A stretch of 64,000 bases of DNA from GCF_055900595.2 NZ_CM148325.1; one strand, 5' to 3'; counted from the first letter of the stretch, positions 43,529 through 49,784 are shown. Program-made: numbers and translations. The notes: generated by a model from the letters alone, not told the origin.

Positions 43529-44116
43529 TTACTTTTGAAAGGCTTTTTTTAAGCTGATTTTGGAAATCAGCTCTGTCAGTGAAAGGACCATTGTTGATCG
43601 CACAGCCTGTTGGTAACGCTGAATTTGCATTGCATACAAACTGGAGTCTGCGGGTTCAAACTGTGGCGGCGGTGGTAACGCCGCCACACAGTGCAGCTCA
43701 CCAAAGGGGCCAAGAATTTCGTCGTCGGTAAAGGCGTACTCATTGCCGTCGTGATTTAGTTCTTCACGCAATGCCATCAGCAGTTCCGCATCTTCGTATT
43801 CATGGCGGTTAATGACACCCAACCCGTAAATGAGTTTTAAACGCACAGAAAGATCGCCCAGCGGGCCATCGCCGTCGAGTAACGGTTCTACAGCATACTT
43901 CACCGCGTAATCGTCTTTGCGGAATACCTGAAGCACCAGAAGATTTACCGCCTCGGTCAAAAGCTCGACGGCGGTAATCAGAAAGCTTCGCACGGTTTTG
44001 CCAGCATTCAGACGCTCAAGCACACGGTTTTCAAAGGCCTGGGTTTGTTCCATTGTTGCCTGCATATCTGACAATCTGTTATTCGGGCGCAGGGAGTCCT
44101 GCGCCTGGTCCACCAT
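43529..44116 (-). CDS. mtlR: mannitol operon repressor MtlR
   Basis: 195 aa, [43 protein letters not shown]... Confidence 0.92.
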   Translation of the reverse strand: MVDQAQDSLRPNNRLSDMQATMEQTQAFENRVLERLNAGKTVRSFLITAVELLTEAVNLLVLQVFRKDDYAVKYAVEPLLDGDGPLGDLSVRLKLIYGLGVINRHEYEDAELLMALREELNHDGNEYAFTDDEILGPFGELHCVAALPPPPQFEPADSSLYAMQIQRYQQAVRSTMVLSLTELISKISLKKAFQK

Positions 44117-45264
44117 TATTGCATTGCTTTATAAGCGGTTACCGCCTCGGATACAACCTCGCTGTTAGCATCAAGGCCGGAAATCTGCGCCAGTGCGGCT
44201 TGCGGGCCTTTGTCGGCAATCAGTGCTGCCAGTTCCTGAGCCTGCGGATCATCTTCACTGCGGAAGTGCATTGCAGCGGCAATACCTTCAATCAGGTTTT
44301 TATGTGGCAGACCATATTCCAGCGTTCCGAGCAGTGGCTTGATCAGACGGTCGCCAGCACTCAGTTTACGCAGCGGCTGACGGCCTACGCGCTCTACATC
44401 GTCTTTCAGATACGGGTTCTCAAAACGACCAAGGATTTTCTGGATGTACGCCGCATGTTTGTCCGCGTCAAAACCGTAACGCTTGATCAGTACAGCGCCA
44501 CTTTCTTCCATCGCCCCTTTTACTACCGCGCGGATTTTCTCGTCGAGAATTGCGTCACGAATGGTCTGATGACCTGCCAGTTTTCCGAGGTACGCGGTTA
44601 TAGCATGACCTGTATTCAGGGTGAAGAGTTTACGCTCAACAAATGCCATCAGGTTGTCGGTTAACTCCATGCCTGGGATGTTCGGCAGTGCACCTTTGAA
44701 TTGGGTTTTATCGACAATCCATTCGCTGAAGGTTTCGACTGTCACTTCCAGCGGATCGTTCGTTGCCGAAGCGGAAGGCGGTACGATGCGGTCAACGGCA
44801 GAGTCCACAAAGCCAACATGTTCTTCGACCCACGCTTTGGCGTCTTCCGGCAGGGCGTTCATCACATGGCCTTTCAGCTGCGTGGTGCCGCGTACCATGT
44901 TTTCACAGGCGATAATGTTCAGCGGGGATTCATTACCTTGTTCTTTACGTTTCACCAGCCCTTTGGCGATTGCCGGAGCAATACGTTCCAGCACAACCGG
45001 GCCCACGGCGGTAGTGACTAAATCAACCTGAGCAATCAGATCAACGACATCATCACCAATGCTGCTGACAGCATTGACGCCAGAAACGGTATCTACCTGC
45101 TCGGTTTCACCGACTACATGAACCTGATAGCTATGACGGGCATTCAGGGCATCAAGTACCACCTGATTGACATCGGCAAACGTCAGTTGGATACCTGCGT
45201 CTGCCAGCAGTTTACCGATAAAGCCACGACCGATATTACCTGCGCCAAAATGTAATGCTTTCAT
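44116..45264 (-). CDS. mtlD: mannitol-1-phosphate 5-dehydrogenase
   Basis: Track ORF 44116..45408 runs into the REP array; start placed at [29 protein letters not shown] (ATG at 45262-45264), 382 aa. Confidence 0.93.
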
Positions 45265-45299
45265 AGTATTAACCTTCATCAATGTTTTTACCCGAGAGG

Positions 45300-45762
<463 letters not shown>

Positions 45763-47676
45763 TTACTTACGACCTGCCAGCAGTTCCAGCACTTCATCCA
45801 CGCTGGTGGTGTGCGCCAGACGCTCGATGACGGACTCATCATCCAGTGCGTTGGTCAGGCTGGTGATAACCTGAATGTGCTCGTTGTTACGGGCAGCAAT
45901 ACCAATCACCAGACGGGCAATGTCATCTTCTTCTTCACCGAAGCGCACGCCTTCCGGGTACTGGCAGAACACCACGCCCGTTTTCAGTACGCGATCTTTC
46001 GCTTCAACCGTACCGTGCGGTACCGCGATGGACTCACCCAGATAAGTCGGGGTCAGTTTTTCACGATCCAGCATCGCCTGAACGTATTCCGGCTCAACGT
46101 AACCGCCTTTCACCAGCTGCTCGCCAGCAAAACGAATCGCTTCTTCTTTGGTGGCCGCTTTGCGACCGAGGAAGATGTTCTCCGCGCCTAGCTTGAACAG
46201 GTTAGCACTGGAATCGTCAAAGCTGTCTTTCAGACTGTCTTTCACTTTTACTTCGTTTTCAGTATGGCGCTGGGCAGCAACCAGACGTTCGGTCAGGCTG
46301 GTGTACAGGCCGCTGTCGAGGAAGTTGGTCAGCGAAATATGCTGTGCCTGCGGAACCTGGCGCATAGCGCGTTCGGTCAGGTCACGGTGAGTGATGACCA
46401 GGTCCACATCTGGCGGCAGGTTGTTGATCGCGCTGTTAGTAACAGAAATCTGCGACAGACCTGCATCCTGAATTTTCTTACGCAGCACACCTGCGCCCAT
46501 CGCACTGGAACCCATACCGGCATCACAGGCAACGATGATTTTACGGACGTGGCTCAGGTCGTTAGTCACATCGCCAGCAGACAGCGGAGATGCGCCTTTA
46601 GATTCAGCTTTCATGTCCTGCATACGACGCGTTGCTGCTTCAATGTCATCTTCTTCTTTCACTTTGCTGGTTTTCAGCAGAATGGCAGAGACAACGAAGG
46701 AGACTGCCATCGCCGCACACACACCCGCTATGTTAGCGAAGTAAGCACCTTTTGGTGTCATCGCCAGTACCGCAAGGATAGAGCCCGGAGATGCCGGAGA
46801 AACCAGACCACCGCCCAGGATAGTCAGCGTGAATACGCCAGTCATACCACCGAGGATAACGGCCAGGATCAGACGCGGATTCATCAGCACATACGGGAAG
46901 TAGATTTCGTGGATACCCCCCAGGAAGTGAATGATTGCCGCACCGCCCGCAGACTGTTTAGCGCTACCACGACCAAAGAACATGTACGCCAGCAGAACAC
47001 CCATACCCGGACCTGGGTTAGCTTCAATCAGGAAGAAGATGGATTTACCCAGTTCATGGGACTGCTGAATACCCAGCGGCGAGAAGATACCGTGGTTAAT
47101 GGCGTTGTTGAGGAACAGGATTTTCGCCGGTTCAACAAAGATAGACGCCAGCGGCAGCATGTCATGGACAACCATGAAGTTAACGCCCGCAGCCAGCATT
47201 TTGGACAGGGCTTCAACAATCGGGCCAATGCCGAGGAACGCCAGAATAGCGAGGATCATCCCGATGATGCCTGCGGAGAAGTTATTCACCAGCATCTCAA
47301 AACCGGATTTGATCTTACCGTCTACCCAGCGGTCGAAGTGCTTAATGCACCAGCCGCCCAGCGGACCTGCAATCATAGAACCGAGGAACATCGGCATATC
47401 TGCGCCGACGATAACGCCCATTGTAGTGATGGCACCGACTACGCCGCCACGTTCGCCGCCTACCAGCTTACCACCGGTATAACCGATCAGCAGTGGCAGG
47501 AGATAAGTGATCATCGGCCCGACCAGCTTCGCCAGCGTTTCGTTCGGTAACCACCCTGTTGGAATAAATAGCGCGGTGATGATACCCCACGCGATAAACG
47601 CGCCGATATTTGGCATCACCATGTTGCTGAGGAAACGACCAAAGCTTTGCACTTTGATCTTAATATCGGATGACAT
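45763..47676 (-). CDS. mtlA: PTS mannitol-specific EIICBA
   Basis: 637 aa, MSSDIKIKVQSFGRFLSNMVMPNIGAFIAWGIITALFIPTGW... Confidence 0.95.
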   Translation of the reverse strand: MSSDIKIKVQSFGRFLSNMVMPNIGAFIAWGIITALFIPTGWLPNETLAKLVGPMITYLLPLLIGYTGGKLVGGERGGVVGAITTMGVIVGADMPMFLGSMIAGPLGGWCIKHFDRWVDGKIKSGFEMLVNNFSAGIIGMILAILAFLGIGPIVEALSKMLAAGVNFMVVHDMLPLASIFVEPAKILFLNNAINHGIFSPLGIQQSHELGKSIFFLIEANPGPGMGVLLAYMFFGRGSAKQSAGGAAIIHFLGGIHEIYFPYVLMNPRLILAVILGGMTGVFTLTILGGGLVSPASPGSILAVLAMTPKGAYFANIAGVCAAMAVSFVVSAILLKTSKVKEEDDIEAATRRMQDMKAESKGASPLSAGDVTNDLSHVRKIIVACDAGMGSSAMGAGVLRKKIQDAGLSQISVTNSAINNLPPDVDLVITHRDLTERAMRQVPQAQHISLTNFLDSGLYTSLTERLVAAQRHTENEVKVKDSLKDSFDDSSANLFKLGAENIFLGRKAATKEEAIRFAGEQLVKGGYVEPEYVQAMLDREKLTPTYLGESIAVPHGTVEAKDRVLKTGVVFCQYPEGVRFGEEEDDIARLVIGIAARNNEHIQVITSLTNALDDESVIERLAHTTSVDEVLELLAGRK

Positions 47677-47980
47677 AAAAACACCCCTTCTTATGTTTGC
47701 TGTCGCGCAGGCTGGAAGCCCGAGGTTTTTTGTTAATGTGGCGGCAGAGGTAGCCGGACCTTGTTGATAGTGCGAAATCTGGCACTGAATCGGTTAACTG
47801 TCCAGTCGACGGCTTTTTGTGTGATATCGGTCACATAAATATAGGGGGTAGAGAGGTAATTGACGTGATGTGCATCACAAAATACTTGTGTAAAAAAGCA
47901 ACAAGACGGCGATTTTCGCTAAAAATGGCATTTAAATGTGAGTAATGTCACATTTTTGTTTTGTTGGTTTGTTGAATCTT

Positions 47981-47996
47981 TGTGATCTGAATCACA
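47981..47996. promoter_or_regulatory. consensus CRP site (TGTGA-N6-TCACA) in the mtlA promoter region
   Basis: tgtgatctgaatcaca read directly; further TGTGA/TCACA-containing palindromes at about 47865-47878 and 48022-48037. Confidence 0.65.
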
Positions 47997-48212
47997 AGAT
48001 ATTTTCTTACGGCGTTCACCTGATGTGATCTGCAGCATGTTATGCCTTCGTCATAAAATCGTTATGTAACTAAGCAACTCATCACCTCTAAAAATTATTC
48101 TTTGGTGTTATGGCGAGAATCGCGAACCCGAATTATTGTCAAAATATCAGCCTGACTCCCTTCTGGCTGCCAGCCAAAAAACAACACCGATAAACGTGAA
48201 TCCGAGGCAGAT

Positions 48213-48575
48213 ATGTTTCTAAACTATTTCGCGTTGGGAGTGCTGATCTTCGTCTTTCTGGTGATTTTTTATGTAATCATCGCGATACATGACATCCCTT
48301 ATCTGATTGCCAAAAAGCGCAATCACCCCCATGCCGACGCTATTCATACGGCGGGCTGGGTGAGCCTGTTTACTCTGCATGTTATCTGGCCGTTCCTGTG
48401 GATCTGGGCGACGCTCTATCAACCGGAGCGTGGCTGGGGTATGCAGTCACATGTTGCGTCGCAGGAGAAAGCGACTGACCCGGAAATCGCCGCACTTTCT
48501 GACCGAATTTCCCGGCTGGAGCATCAACTCGCCGCCGAGAAAAAGACTGACTATTCCACGTTCCCGGAGATCTAA
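48213..48575 (+). CDS. yibI: DUF3302-family small inner membrane protein YibI
   Basis: 120 aa, [45 protein letters not shown]... Confidence 0.85.
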
Positions 48576-48577
48576 AT

Positions 48578-49714
48578 ATGGATCTATTGATTGTTTTAAC
48601 TTACGTGGCGCTGGCGTGGGCGGTCTTTAAAATCTTCCGCATTCCGGTAAATCAGTGGACGCTGGCGACGGCGGCGCTGGGAGGCGTGTTTCTGGTGAGT
48701 GGTTTGATTTTGTTGATGAACTACAACCACCCTTACACTTTTACCGCACAGAAAGCGGTGATTGCTATTCCCATCACGCCACAGGTGACGGGGATCGTGA
48801 CTGAAGTCACTGACAAGAATAATCAGCTCATTCAGAAGGGCGAGGTGCTTTTTAAGCTCGACCCGGTACGTTATCAGGCGCGAGTCGACAGACTTCAGGC
48901 TGACCTGATGACGGCGACGCATAATATAAAGACACTGCGCGCGCAGCTCACTGAAGCGCAAGCCAATACCACCCAGGTTTCAGCGGAGCGTGACCGCTTG
49001 TTTAAAAATTATCAACGTTACCTGAAAGGCAGCCAAGCGGCGGTAAATCCGTTCTCAGAACGTGATATCGACGATGCGCGGCAGAATTTTCTCGCGCAGG
49101 ATGCGCTGGTGAAAGGCTCGGTGGCGGAACAGGCGCAAATCCAGAGCCAGCTCGACAGTATGGTTAACGGTGAGCAGTCGCAGATTGTCAGCTTAAGGGC
49201 GCAGCTTACCGAAGCGAAATATAACCTTGAGCAGACCGTCATTCGCGCGCCGAGCAATGGCTACGTCACTCAGGTGCTGATCCGCCCAGGTACATACGCA
49301 GCTGCCTTGCCGTTGCGTCCGGTAATGGTTTTCATCCCTGAGCAAAAACGGCAAATTGTCGCCCAATTTCGGCAAAACTCGCTGTTACGTCTGAAACCCG
49401 GCGATGATGCGGAAGTGGTGTTTAACGCGCTACCTGGGCAGGTGTTCCACGGCAAACTGACTAGTATTTTACCTGTCGTGCCAGGCGGTTCGTATCAGGC
49501 GCAAGGGGTATTGCAATCATTAACGGTCGTGCCCGGCACGGACGGTGTGCTGGGAACCATTGAACTGGACCCTAACGATGATATCGATGCTTTACCCGAC
49601 GGCATCTACGCCCAGGTGGCAGTTTACTCCGACCATTTCAGCCATGTTTCGGTGATGCGGAAGGTGCTGCTAAGAATGACCAGTTGGATGCATTATCTTT
49701 ATTTGGATCATTGA
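48578..49714 (+). CDS. yibH: HlyD-family (membrane fusion protein-like) inner membrane protein YibH
   Basis: 378 aa, single N-terminal TM then coiled-coil and barrel-sandwich-like regions; starts 3 nt after yibI. Confidence 0.85.
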
Positions 49715-49784
49715 GACTTGTATCACCTGTGTTTTGCGCGAGCCTGAGCCATACTGATATTTTTCCTCGCACAAAGGACTCGGC

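What the first reader, a model, noticed from the sequence alone, without database searches (positions are those of the whole stretch)
47677..48212. Cluster of CRP-like palindromes in the divergent mtlA / yibI control region
A perfect TGTGA-N6-TCACA site (47981-47996) and at least two further TGTGA/TCACA-containing palindromes (gtgatgtgcatcac at 47865-47878; tgatgtgatctgcagca at about 48022-48038) lie upstream of mtlA. That is consistent with the multi-CRP-site mtl promoter, and the same region must also drive divergent yibIH.
Basis: partly seen in the sequence, partly recalled or inferred. Interest (0 to 1): 0.25.

Follow-up and report, generated by a model that had tools for sequence, protein, structure and literature searches.

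The report
Known five-site CRP operator of mtlA
The palindromes are the well-known array of five binding sites for the sugar-sensing regulator CRP that switches on the E. coli mannitol operon, so the finding is real but already explained in the literature.

Summary
The 536-bp mtlA–yibI spacer (47677-48212) holds three perfect TGTGA-N6-TCACA cores, not one. They start at 47820, 47937 and 47981 and are the only three in the 64-kb window. There is also a 9/10 site at 47864 and a 7/10 site at 48024.

The site centres are 44, 73, 44 and 43 bp apart. That matches the published CRP5 to CRP1 sites of the E. coli mtlADR operator at -58.5, -102.5, -175.5, -219.5 and -262.5.

A CRP matrix built from 103 independent in-vivo sites ranks them 2, 3, 4, 1 and 10 of about 64,000 window positions.

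The 44/73/44 geometry and the half-sites are conserved in 41 mtlA loci across Enterobacterales. The N6 spacers vary freely. yibIH is the divergent neighbour in only 12 loci, so the array belongs to mtlA.

MtlR (99% identical to K-12, with R167 and L178 kept) has no DNA-binding domain. According to a 2026 paper, it represses by bridging CRP dimers spaced 43-46 bp apart.

Nothing here shows that CRP controls yibIH. Its promoter probably lies in the last ~145 bp before the yibI start codon.

One item is unexplained: two invariant non-CRP blocks, AAATA and ACAAA, flank CRP2.

Verdict: already known, low interest.

The parts
47817..47838 (-). CRP5, promoter-proximal CRP site. Core is 47820-47835, centre 47827.5, which is -58.5. 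The core is perfect (10/10).
   Evidence: core. (PWM rank 2 of about 64,000). (published position). (ChIP-seq site in ETEC).
47861..47882 (-). CRP4. Core is 47864-47879, centre 47871.5, which is -102.5. It matches 9/10 positions (cGTGA...TCACA).
   Evidence: (rank 3)..
47934..47955 (-). CRP3. Core is 47937-47952, centre 47944.5, which is -175.5.
   Evidence: (rank 1). (rank 4)..
47978..47999 (-). CRP2. Core is 47981-47996, centre 47988.5, which is -219.5. The core is perfect.
   Evidence: (rank 1)..
48021..48042 (-). CRP1. Core is 48024-48039, centre 48031.5, which is -262.5. It is a weak site (7/10) and is reported to be dispensable and usually unoccupied.
   Evidence: (rank 10, 17th percentile of in-vivo sites)..
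47799..47804 (-). mtlA -35 element TGGACA, at -35 to -30.
   Evidence: Consistent with the published TSS and site positions. Partly conserved (G at -33).
47776..47784 (-). mtlA extended -10, TGcCAGATT. The hexamer is 47781-47776, at -12 to -7.
   Evidence: The TGn motif is conserved in both promoter types seen across Enterobacterales.
47769..47769 (-). Inferred mtlA transcription start (+1), which gives a 93-nt leader (47677-47769).
   Evidence: Inferred by placing the published site positions on the site centres found here. It lies 7 nt downstream of the -10 hexamer. It was not measured in this strain.
47784..47797 (+). Cra (FruR)-type operator ACTGAATCGGTTAA, centred at about -21.5 between the -35 and -10 elements.
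   Evidence: one of 2 matches to RSTGAAWCSNTHHW in the window. The consensus is from my own knowledge. Cra repression of mtl is cited.
47968..47972 (-). Conserved non-CRP block ACAAA (usually followed by G or C) at -203 to -199, in the CRP2-CRP3 spacer. It sits 18.5-19 bp on the promoter side of the CRP2 centre. Function unknown.
   Evidence: Four of its five columns score the maximum 1.77 bits across 25 genus-level sequences; the C column scores 1.23.
48000..48004 (-). Conserved non-CRP block AAATA at -235 to -231, just upstream of the CRP2 22-mer. Function unknown.
   Evidence: 1.2-1.8 bits per column, against 0.5 for other spacer columns.
45763..47676 (-). mtlA, encoding the mannitol PTS enzyme IICBA (637 aa).
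43529..44116 (-). mtlR (195 aa), encoding the co-repressor that docks on CRP pairs. R167 and L178 are retained.
   Evidence: 193/195 identical to K-12. (interface residues).
48068..48212 (+). Region that probably contains the yibI promoter. No CRP site lies in it. A weak candidate is TGGCGA-17-TATTGT at 48111-48139.
   Evidence: UTI89 promoter-trap insert. (blocks conserved in Escherichia and Citrobacter). The candidate hexamers are inference only.
48213..48575 (+). yibI (DUF3302, 120 aa), the divergent neighbour, followed by yibH at 48578-49714.

Best explanation
This is the canonical operator-promoter of the E. coli mannitol operon mtlADR, a class III CRP-dependent promoter.

Five cAMP-CRP sites lie upstream of a weak extended -10 promoter: -35 TGGACA, a 17-bp spacer, then TGcCAGATT, with the start site at 47769 on the minus strand. 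The sites are CRP5 to CRP1, at -58.5, -102.5, -175.5, -219.5 and -262.5.

According to the literature, CRP bound at CRP2, CRP4 and CRP5 is required to activate transcription. CRP3 contributes, and CRP1 is weak and dispensable.

The repressor MtlR has no DNA-binding domain. [quoted passage not shown] Here those pairs are CRP4-5 (44 bp), CRP2-3 (44 bp) and CRP1-2 (43 bp). The bridge blocks the contacts between CRP and RNA polymerase.

[quoted passage not shown] A Cra-type operator sits between the -35 and -10 elements.

What was shown here: the sites, their scores, their spacing, collinearity with K-12, cross-species conservation, and an intact MtlR. What comes from papers on K-12 and ETEC: binding, activation and the MtlR mechanism. 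Applying that mechanism to this strain is an inference.
For: - Site count. There are three perfect cores plus a 9/10 and a 7/10 site, and the three perfect cores are the only ones in 64 kb. Four sites match at least 9/10 against 0.016-0.03 expected.
- PWM scoring. A matrix built from 103 independent ETEC ChIP-seq sites ranks the five sites 1, 2, 3, 4 and 10 of 63,985 positions. Four of them exceed the median in-vivo site, and none of 3000 simulations reached that count. A second matrix built from classical sites ranks them 1, 2, 4, 5 and 11.
- Spacing. Centre-to-centre distances of 44/73/44/43 equal the published ones.
- K-12 comparison. The spacer aligns to K-12 with no indels. All six substitutions that fall inside the 16-mers are in the N6 spacers, and none are in the 50 half-site positions.
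- Promoter. The -35 and extended -10 elements sit at the expected distance from CRP5.
- Conservation. Forty-one mtlA loci, from Escherichia to Yersinia, Serratia, Pantoea, Hafnia and Budvicia, keep exactly 44/73/44. Half-site columns average 1.59 bits against 0.48 for N6 columns.
- MtlR. It is 193/195 identical to K-12 and keeps R167 and L178.
- Binding data from papers. CRP SELEX recovered the yibI-mtlA spacer as its second most abundant clone class. ChIP-seq found two peaks on these same sites. PhyloScan ranked this spacer first genome-wide.
- Mechanism. PMC13421365.
Against: - No binding or expression data exist for this strain.
- CRP1 is not distinguishable from chance by sequence (7/10, 17th percentile of in-vivo sites).
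- The start site is transferred from old S1 mapping in K-12, and the base at the inferred +1 differs in its neighbourhood (47770 and 47765 differ from K-12).
- CRP5 at -58.5 is about 3 bp away from the canonical class I position.
- How sites at -175.5 and -219.5 activate transcription is still unexplained in the literature.
- The simple sigma-70 scan did not call the mtlA promoter.
Confidence: 0.95

Rival explanations
1. The array is a shared, bidirectional control region. The distal sites CRP1 and CRP2 also activate or repress the divergent yibIH operon.
For: - yibI is the nearest gene to CRP1. The ETEC ChIP-seq study assigned the CRP1/CRP2 peak to yibI, but only by proximity. The SELEX authors note that both genes lie downstream of the bound DNA.
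- A -10-like TAAAAT at 48054-48059 in the yibI direction, with TCTGCA 19 bp upstream, overlaps CRP1. It corresponds to a promoter-like sequence that the RNAP SELEX study lists for this spacer.
- The longer UTI89 promoter-trap insert, which contains CRP1 to CRP3, was urine-induced 5.6-fold.
Against: - The array keeps a fixed distance to mtlA in 41 loci, while yibIH is adjacent in only 12.
- In Enterobacter and Leclercia the sequence upstream of yibI is unrelated and about 120 bp longer, yet the array is unchanged.
- A second insert starting at 48068, with no CRP site, was also recovered from the urine-induction sort.
- One E. coli strain carries an IS21-family element between CRP2 and CRP1.
- No yibI start site or crp-dependence was found in the papers searched.
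Confidence: 0.15
2. The palindromes are operators bound directly by the mannitol repressor MtlR, which is the older view and the one implied by the reader's suggestion to scan for 'MtlR sites'.
For: The sites are repeated palindromes upstream of an MtlR-repressed operon.
Against: [quoted passage not shown] It supershifts only probes on which two CRP dimers are bound 43-46 bp apart, and it will bind a foreign malK operator once that operator's spacing is reset to 44 bp. The half-sites are the CRP consensus itself.
Confidence: 0.02
3. The motifs are a chance cluster or copies of a dispersed repeat, with no regulatory role.
For: The spacer is AT-rich (42% GC), and the 7/10 site at 48024 is at chance level.
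Against: No simulation reached the observed count. The half-sites are conserved while the N6 spacers are saturated with change across 41 loci. There are no tandem repeats or Rfam hits in the spacer.
Confidence: 0.01

Closest known systems
E. coli K-12 mtlADR operator with five CRP sites (Ramseier & Saier 1995; Lee et al., NAR 2026, PMC13421365)
   Same: It is the same locus. The 536-bp spacers are collinear, the half-site pentamers are identical, and the site centres match at -58.5, -102.5, -175.5, -219.5 and -262.5 with spacings of 44/73/44/43. The promoter elements and the Cra-type site are the same, and MtlR is 99% identical.
   Different: There are 17 substitutions in the spacer, 6 of them in the N6 spacers of CRP1, CRP3, CRP4 and CRP5. 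The changes in CRP4 make it a better palindrome. The window strain also has a longer REP array downstream of mtlA and lacks the rhsA island beyond yibH.
CytR-CRP repression complexes (deoP2, cdd, tsx and others)
   Same: A specific repressor is held between two DNA-bound CRP dimers and acts as an anti-activator by masking CRP's contacts with RNA polymerase (discussed).
   Different: CytR has its own DNA-binding domain and operator, and it works with CRP sites about 52-53 bp apart (my own knowledge). MtlR binds no DNA and needs 43-46 bp. The spacings here are 43, 44 and 73 bp.
malEp-malKp divergent region with several CRP sites
   Same: It is a multi-CRP array in a divergent intergenic region that acts architecturally as a class III promoter.
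   Different: The adjacent malK sites are 34 bp apart and do not recruit MtlR unless reset to 44 bp. That array needs MalT and demonstrably serves both divergent promoters, which has not been shown for yibIH.
Vibrio cholerae mtl operator with the MtlS antisense sRNA
   Same: CRP-site pairs spaced 43-44 bp lie upstream of mtlA.
   Different: It has fewer or differently arranged sites and adds a cis-antisense sRNA. There is no Rfam hit in the E. coli leader or spacer, and the 2026 paper states that MtlS is absent from E. coli.

Membership tests
mtlADR CRP/MtlR operator (class III CRP-dependent promoter) | Several CRP-consensus sites upstream of mtlA | tested here: met
   There are five sites. 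Four match at least 9/10 core positions. With the ChIP-derived PWM they rank 1-4 and 10 in the window.
mtlADR CRP/MtlR operator (class III CRP-dependent promoter) | Site centres at -58.5, -102.5, -175.5, -219.5 and -262.5 relative to the mapped start site | tested here: met
   The spacings of 44/73/44/43 are identical to the published ones. The alignment to K-12 has no gaps. The -35 and -10 elements are at the matching distance. The start site itself is taken from the literature.
mtlADR CRP/MtlR operator (class III CRP-dependent promoter) | Adjacent CRP sites 43-46 bp apart, the geometry required to recruit MtlR | tested here: met
   CRP4-5 are 44 bp apart, CRP2-3 44 bp and CRP1-2 43 bp. The requirement is described.
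mtlADR CRP/MtlR operator (class III CRP-dependent promoter) | A cognate mtlR in the operon that keeps the CRP-contact residues R167 and L178 | tested here: met
   mtlR is at 43529-44116. It is 193/195 identical to K-12, and both residues are present.
mtlADR CRP/MtlR operator (class III CRP-dependent promoter) | cAMP-CRP occupancy and the MtlR supershift on this DNA | not testable with these tools
   Shown only for K-12 and ETEC DNA with the same half-sites, by gel shift, SELEX and ChIP-seq.
Cra (FruR) operator | A match to RSTGAAWCSNTHHW that overlaps the core promoter | tested here: met
   47784-47797 matches. It is one of 2 matches in 64 kb, against 0.54 expected. The consensus was recalled from memory, and binding was not tested.
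CytR-CRP sandwich operator | Two CRP sites about 52-53 bp apart with CytR half-sites between them | tested here: not met
   The spacings are 43, 44, 73 and 44 bp. I did not search for CytR motifs.
CRP-controlled divergent promoter pair (yibIH as a second target) | A CRP site at a class I or class II distance from a mapped yibI start site, and crp-dependent yibI expression | tested here: inconclusive
   No yibI start site was found. The shorter promoter-trap insert lacks all CRP sites.

The most novel reading that the evidence does not exclude
The two invariant non-CRP blocks that flank CRP2 may be a functional element that has not been described. They are AAATA at -235 to -231 (48000-48004) and ACAAA(G) at -203 to -199 (47968-47972).

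The block could be a docking site for the RNA polymerase alpha C-terminal domain, since the ACAAAG centre lies 18.5-19 bp on the promoter side of the CRP2 centre. It could instead be the site of an unknown protein, or an indirect-readout or bending element.

Any of these would help explain the puzzling published result that a CRP site at -219.5 is indispensable for activation. The 2026 paper reports no sequence similarity among the spacers between sites within E. coli. Cross-species conservation of the spacers does not appear in the sections of that paper I read.
Probability: 0.3. Interest if true: 0.4.

Novelty: already known. Interest (0 to 1): 0.12.

Why it matters
This is a textbook-grade regulatory region. 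It is one of the strongest CRP targets in the E. coli genome, and since 2026 it has been the model for a repressor that recognises the spacing of another factor's sites rather than DNA itself.

Recognising it here adds nothing new about that mechanism. It does show three things:
- The first-stage reader can spot genuine operators from raw sequence.
- The 44/73/44 geometry is held to the base pair across Enterobacterales.
- Natural variation falls in the N6 spacers, with no substitutions in the half-sites between this strain and K-12.

The only open thread is the pair of invariant blocks around CRP2. They could bear on how far-upstream CRP sites activate transcription.

Tried and rejected
- Rfam scan of 45000-48700 at E <= 1. 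It found nothing in the spacer or the mtlA leader, so there is no MtlS-like or other known RNA. The only hits were sub-threshold REP/naRNA4 matches downstream of mtlA.
- The stock sigma-70 scan did not find the mtlA promoter, because CAGATT matches only 3/6. A relaxed scan that allows an extended -10 did find it.
- The 42-aa ORF at 47817-47945 (+) that spans CRP5 to CRP3 was rejected as spurious. It runs through N6 spacers and between-site segments that are not conserved.
- The tandem-repeat search found none in the spacer.
- I tested whether the N6 spacers evolve faster than neutral. They diverge 20-30% within E. coli, against 2.4-5% for the rest of the spacer (P about 1e-4). Against mtlA four-fold degenerate sites (8.6-15%) the excess is only borderline (P = 0.04-0.14). 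The simpler reading is that the spacers are unconstrained within an otherwise constrained region.
- Literature attempts that failed: Figge et al. 1994 is not held. I found no paper giving Fis-site coordinates at mtl. I found no held source for the alpha-CTD 'AAAAAG, 19 bp' geometry, so that point rests on my own memory. My first yibI search was swamped by 'Yibin'.
- I found no mapped yibI start site. The candidate hexamers near 48111-48139 and 48029-48059 are weak, and I do not claim them as promoters.

Full report
**Context**

The window is E. coli chromosome. A 701-bp query across the region matches 5,404 of 5,426 complete E. coli genomes, at 97.4% identity to K-12 and at least 99% to only 14 genomes.

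mtlA lies on the minus strand at 45763-47676. mtlD and mtlR (43529-44116) follow it. yibI (48213-48575) and yibH (48578-49714) run divergently on the plus strand. The finding's coordinates, 47677-48212, are exactly the 536-bp mtlA-yibI spacer, which is 42% GC.

**Checking the observation**

The spacer has three perfect TGTGA-N6-TCACA cores, starting at 47820, 47937 and 47981. They are the only three in the whole 64-kb window.

Four sites match at least 9/10 positions. The rate outside the spacer predicts 0.016 (P = 3e-9). First-order Markov simulations of the spacer gave a mean of 0.03, and none of 5000 reached four.

**PWM test**

I built a symmetrised 16-bp matrix from the 103 CRP sites that a ChIP-seq study reported for ETEC H10407 (PMC4287617, Table 1), leaving out its four mtl/yibI sites. 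Results:

| Site | Score (bits) | Rank of 63,985 window positions |
|---|---|---|
| CRP2 | 19.8 | 1 |
| CRP5 | 18.5 | 2 |
| CRP4 | 17.9 | 3 |
| CRP3 | 15.2 | 4 |
| 48024 site (CRP1) | 9.8 | 10 |

The first four sit at the 79th to 99th percentile of the in-vivo sites. The 48024 site sits at the 17th percentile. At the median in-vivo score the spacer has 4 sites and the other 63.5 kb has 1. No simulation out of 3000 reached 4.

A second 22-bp matrix, built from 15 classical sites that I recalled from memory and so flagged as such, ranks the five sites 1, 2, 4, 5 and 11. The refutation condition, 'only one site above threshold', is therefore not met.

**Identity with the published operator**

The site centres are 47827.5, 47871.5, 47944.5, 47988.5 and 48031.5, giving spacings of 44, 73, 44 and 43 bp. 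Lee et al. (NAR 2026, PMC13421365) give the five CRP sites of the E. coli mtl operator as centred at -58.5, -102.5, -175.5, -219.5 and -262.5, with the same spacings. They credit the original definition to Ramseier & Saier 1995.

The window spacer aligns to the K-12 spacer without a single indel. The sites are therefore CRP5 to CRP1, and the start site maps to 47769 on the minus strand, leaving a 93-nt leader.

At the right distance from that start there is a -35 TGGACA (47804-47799), a 17-bp spacer, and an extended -10 TGcCAGATT (hexamer 47781-47776). The stock promoter scan missed this promoter because the -10 matches only 3/6. That is what one expects of an activator-dependent promoter.

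A full match to the Cra consensus RSTGAAWCSNTHHW (consensus from memory) lies at 47784-47797, between the -35 and -10 elements. It is one of two matches in the window, against 0.54 expected. This fits the reported repression by Cra.

**Independent binding evidence from papers**

- CRP genomic SELEX recovered the yibI-mtlA spacer as the second most abundant clone class, with 38 clones (PMC3105977).
- ChIP-seq in ETEC found two peaks here. MEME assigned them to sequences that correspond to CRP2 with CRP1 and to CRP5 with CRP4.
- PhyloScan ranked this spacer first genome-wide for CRP sites (PMC1794230).

**How it works**

This part is taken from the literature and transferred to this strain by inference.

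CRP is essential for mtl transcription. Chromosomal replacement of CRP2, CRP4 or CRP5 abolishes expression and growth on mannitol. Replacing CRP3 has a mild effect and replacing CRP1 has none. CRP1 carries 7 of the 10 consensus bases and is normally unoccupied.

MtlR has no DNA-binding domain. It supershifts only probes on which two CRP dimers are bound 43-46 bp apart, with an optimum of 44-45 bp. It fails on the 73-bp CRP3-4 pair and on the malK operator, but it binds both once they are reset to 44 bp. Its R167 and L178 contact CRP and mask the regions of CRP that activate RNA polymerase.

Dephosphorylated EII-Mtl sequesters MtlR at the membrane when mannitol is being transported. Dephosphorylated HPr competes for the same surface on MtlR and restores repression in glucose.

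In this window every sequence prerequisite is present. The three MtlR-competent spacings (44, 44 and 43 bp) are there, and MtlR is 193/195 identical to K-12 with R167 and L178 intact.

**Conservation**

One scan of species-representative genomes with MtlA returned 80 loci. Forty-one sequences, counting the window, keep four sites of at least 8/10 at exactly 44/73/44. They span Escherichia, Citrobacter, Enterobacter, Cedecea, Pantoea, Erwinia, Serratia, Yersinia, Rahnella, Pectobacterium, Hafnia and Budvicia. Near-variants also occur:

| Genus | Spacings |
|---|---|
| Providencia | 44/72/44 |
| Aeromonas | 45/73/44 |
| Tolumonas | 45/74/43 |
| Photobacterium | 45/73/43 |

In a genus-level stack of 25 sequences, half-site columns average 1.59 bits. 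N6 columns average 0.48 and other columns 0.50.

Within Escherichia the same pattern holds. Between the window and K-12 there are 6 substitutions in 30 N6 positions, 0 in 50 half-site positions, and 11 in 456 elsewhere. N6 divergence (20-30%) is well above the rest of the spacer (P about 1e-4), but only borderline above mtlA four-fold degenerate sites (8.6-15%). I read this as unconstrained spacers inside a constrained region, not as accelerated evolution.

Outside Enterobacteriaceae the core promoter sequence differs (CTACGCAG ... GTGATAGAGTCC). It sits at the same distance from CRP5, within 1 bp, and also has a TGn extended -10. A paper on class I spacing reports that a consensus extended -10 relaxes the spacing stringency of CRP activation (PMC4132738). 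That would fit CRP5's unusual -58.5 position. This link is my inference.

**Does the array drive yibIH?**

The yibI promoter must lie in this spacer, but I found no evidence that CRP controls it.

- yibIH is mtlA's divergent neighbour in only 12 of the fetched loci, whereas the array is fixed relative to mtlA in 41.
- In Enterobacter and Leclercia the sequence upstream of yibI is unrelated and the spacer is about 120 bp longer, yet the array is unchanged.
- In a UPEC promoter-trap screen yibI was urine-induced. One insert maps to window 47883-48364 and contains CRP1 to CRP3. A second, also recovered from the enrichment, maps to 48068-48303 and contains no CRP site (PMC5404293). This places a promoter within about 145 bp of the ATG.
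- Blocks conserved in Escherichia and Citrobacter (TATGGCGA, TTATTGTCA, GGCTGCCAGC) lie in that stretch. TGGCGA-17-TATTGT at 48111-48139 is a weak candidate only.
- A -10-like TAAAAT at 48054-48059 with TCTGCA 19 bp upstream overlaps CRP1. It corresponds to a sequence listed by an RNAP SELEX study. This keeps some possibility of CRP1 involvement alive.
- One E. coli strain (GPEC1054) has an IS21-family element inserted at about window 48012, between CRP2 and CRP1. That is consistent with CRP1 being dispensable for mtlA.

**An unexplained feature**

Apart from the CRP half-sites and their immediate flanks, the most conserved columns in the region are two short blocks around CRP2. One is AAATA at -235 to -231 (48000-48004). 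The other is ACAAA, usually followed by G or C, at -203 to -199 (47968-47972). They are invariant or nearly so across the 25 genus-level Enterobacterales sequences, and absent in Aeromonas, Tolumonas and Photobacterium.

No comparable block follows CRP4 or CRP5. The centre of ACAAAG lies 18.5-19 bp on the promoter side of the CRP2 centre. From memory of the CAP-alphaCTD-DNA structure, that is where the alpha C-terminal domain sits next to CAP on an AAAAAG segment. I could not find a held paper to cite for this.

The conserved C argues for base-specific readout, which alpha-CTD does not typically need. An unknown protein or an indirect-readout or bending role therefore remain open. Simple arithmetic puts CRP2 (15.05 helical turns from -61.5) and CRP4 (3.90 turns) near the class I face of the helix, and CRP3 (10.86) and CRP5 (-0.29) off it. 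I do not build on this. The 2026 paper leaves the requirement for CRP2 at -219.5 unexplained, offering looping or anti-silencing as possibilities.

**Verdict**

The feature is already known in detail, so interest is low. The only lead with any novelty is the pair of conserved blocks flanking CRP2.

Noticed in passing
window 47968-47972 and 48000-48004: Two non-CRP blocks flank CRP2: ACAAA at -203 to -199 and AAATA at -235 to -231. They are invariant or nearly so across 25 genus-level Enterobacterales mtlA upstream regions and absent outside the order. Their function is unknown. The ACAAAG centre lies 18.5-19 bp on the promoter side of the CRP2 centre.
   Followed up: partly
window 45265-45762 (repeat array 45332-45752): The mtlA-mtlD spacer is about 498 bp and holds a 135-bp unit repeated 3.1 times in tandem at 96% match. 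The units are REP/BIME-type and give sub-threshold Rfam naRNA4 hits. The K-12 spacer is only 229 bp.
   Followed up: partly
window 49715-49784: Only 70 bp separate yibH from yibF here. K-12 carries an island of about 8.3 kb at this position, with rhsA, yibA, yibJ, yibG and yibV. This strain lacks the RhsA element at this site.
   Followed up: partly
L082 (E. coli GPEC1054, NZ_CM142793.1), equivalent to about window 48012: An IS21-family element (istA/istB) is inserted in the mtlA-yibI spacer between CRP2 and CRP1. It separates CRP1 and yibI from CRP2-5 and mtlA.
   Followed up: partly
window 47825-47830, 47869-47874, 47942-47947, 47986-47991 and 48029-48034 (the N6 spacers): The central six bases of the CRP sites are the most variable positions of the spacer within Escherichia. 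They differ at 20-30% of positions, against 2.4-5% for the rest of the spacer and 8.6-15% at mtlA four-fold degenerate sites. Between this strain and K-12 no substitution falls in a half-site; more distant Escherichia pairs show 1-3 in 50.
   Followed up: yes
L019-L041 (Serratia, Yersinia, Pantoea, Erwinia, Hafnia, Budvicia and others), downstream of CRP5: Enterobacterales outside the Enterobacteriaceae use a different conserved core promoter (CTACGCAG ... GTGATAGAGTCC ... TGCATACAG). It sits at the same distance from CRP5 and also has a TGn extended -10.
   Followed up: no
window 48150-48175: The near-palindrome CTGGCTGCCAGCC, followed by an A-run, lies about 40 bp upstream of the yibI ATG. 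It is conserved in Escherichia and Citrobacter. It could be a regulator site or a leader element for yibIH.
   Followed up: no
window 15231, 17005, 48796 and 62464, among others: A few isolated CRP-like 16-mers score 11.6-13 bits with the ChIP-derived matrix elsewhere in the window. One (48796) lies inside yibH. None forms a cluster, and their gene context was not examined.
   Followed up: no
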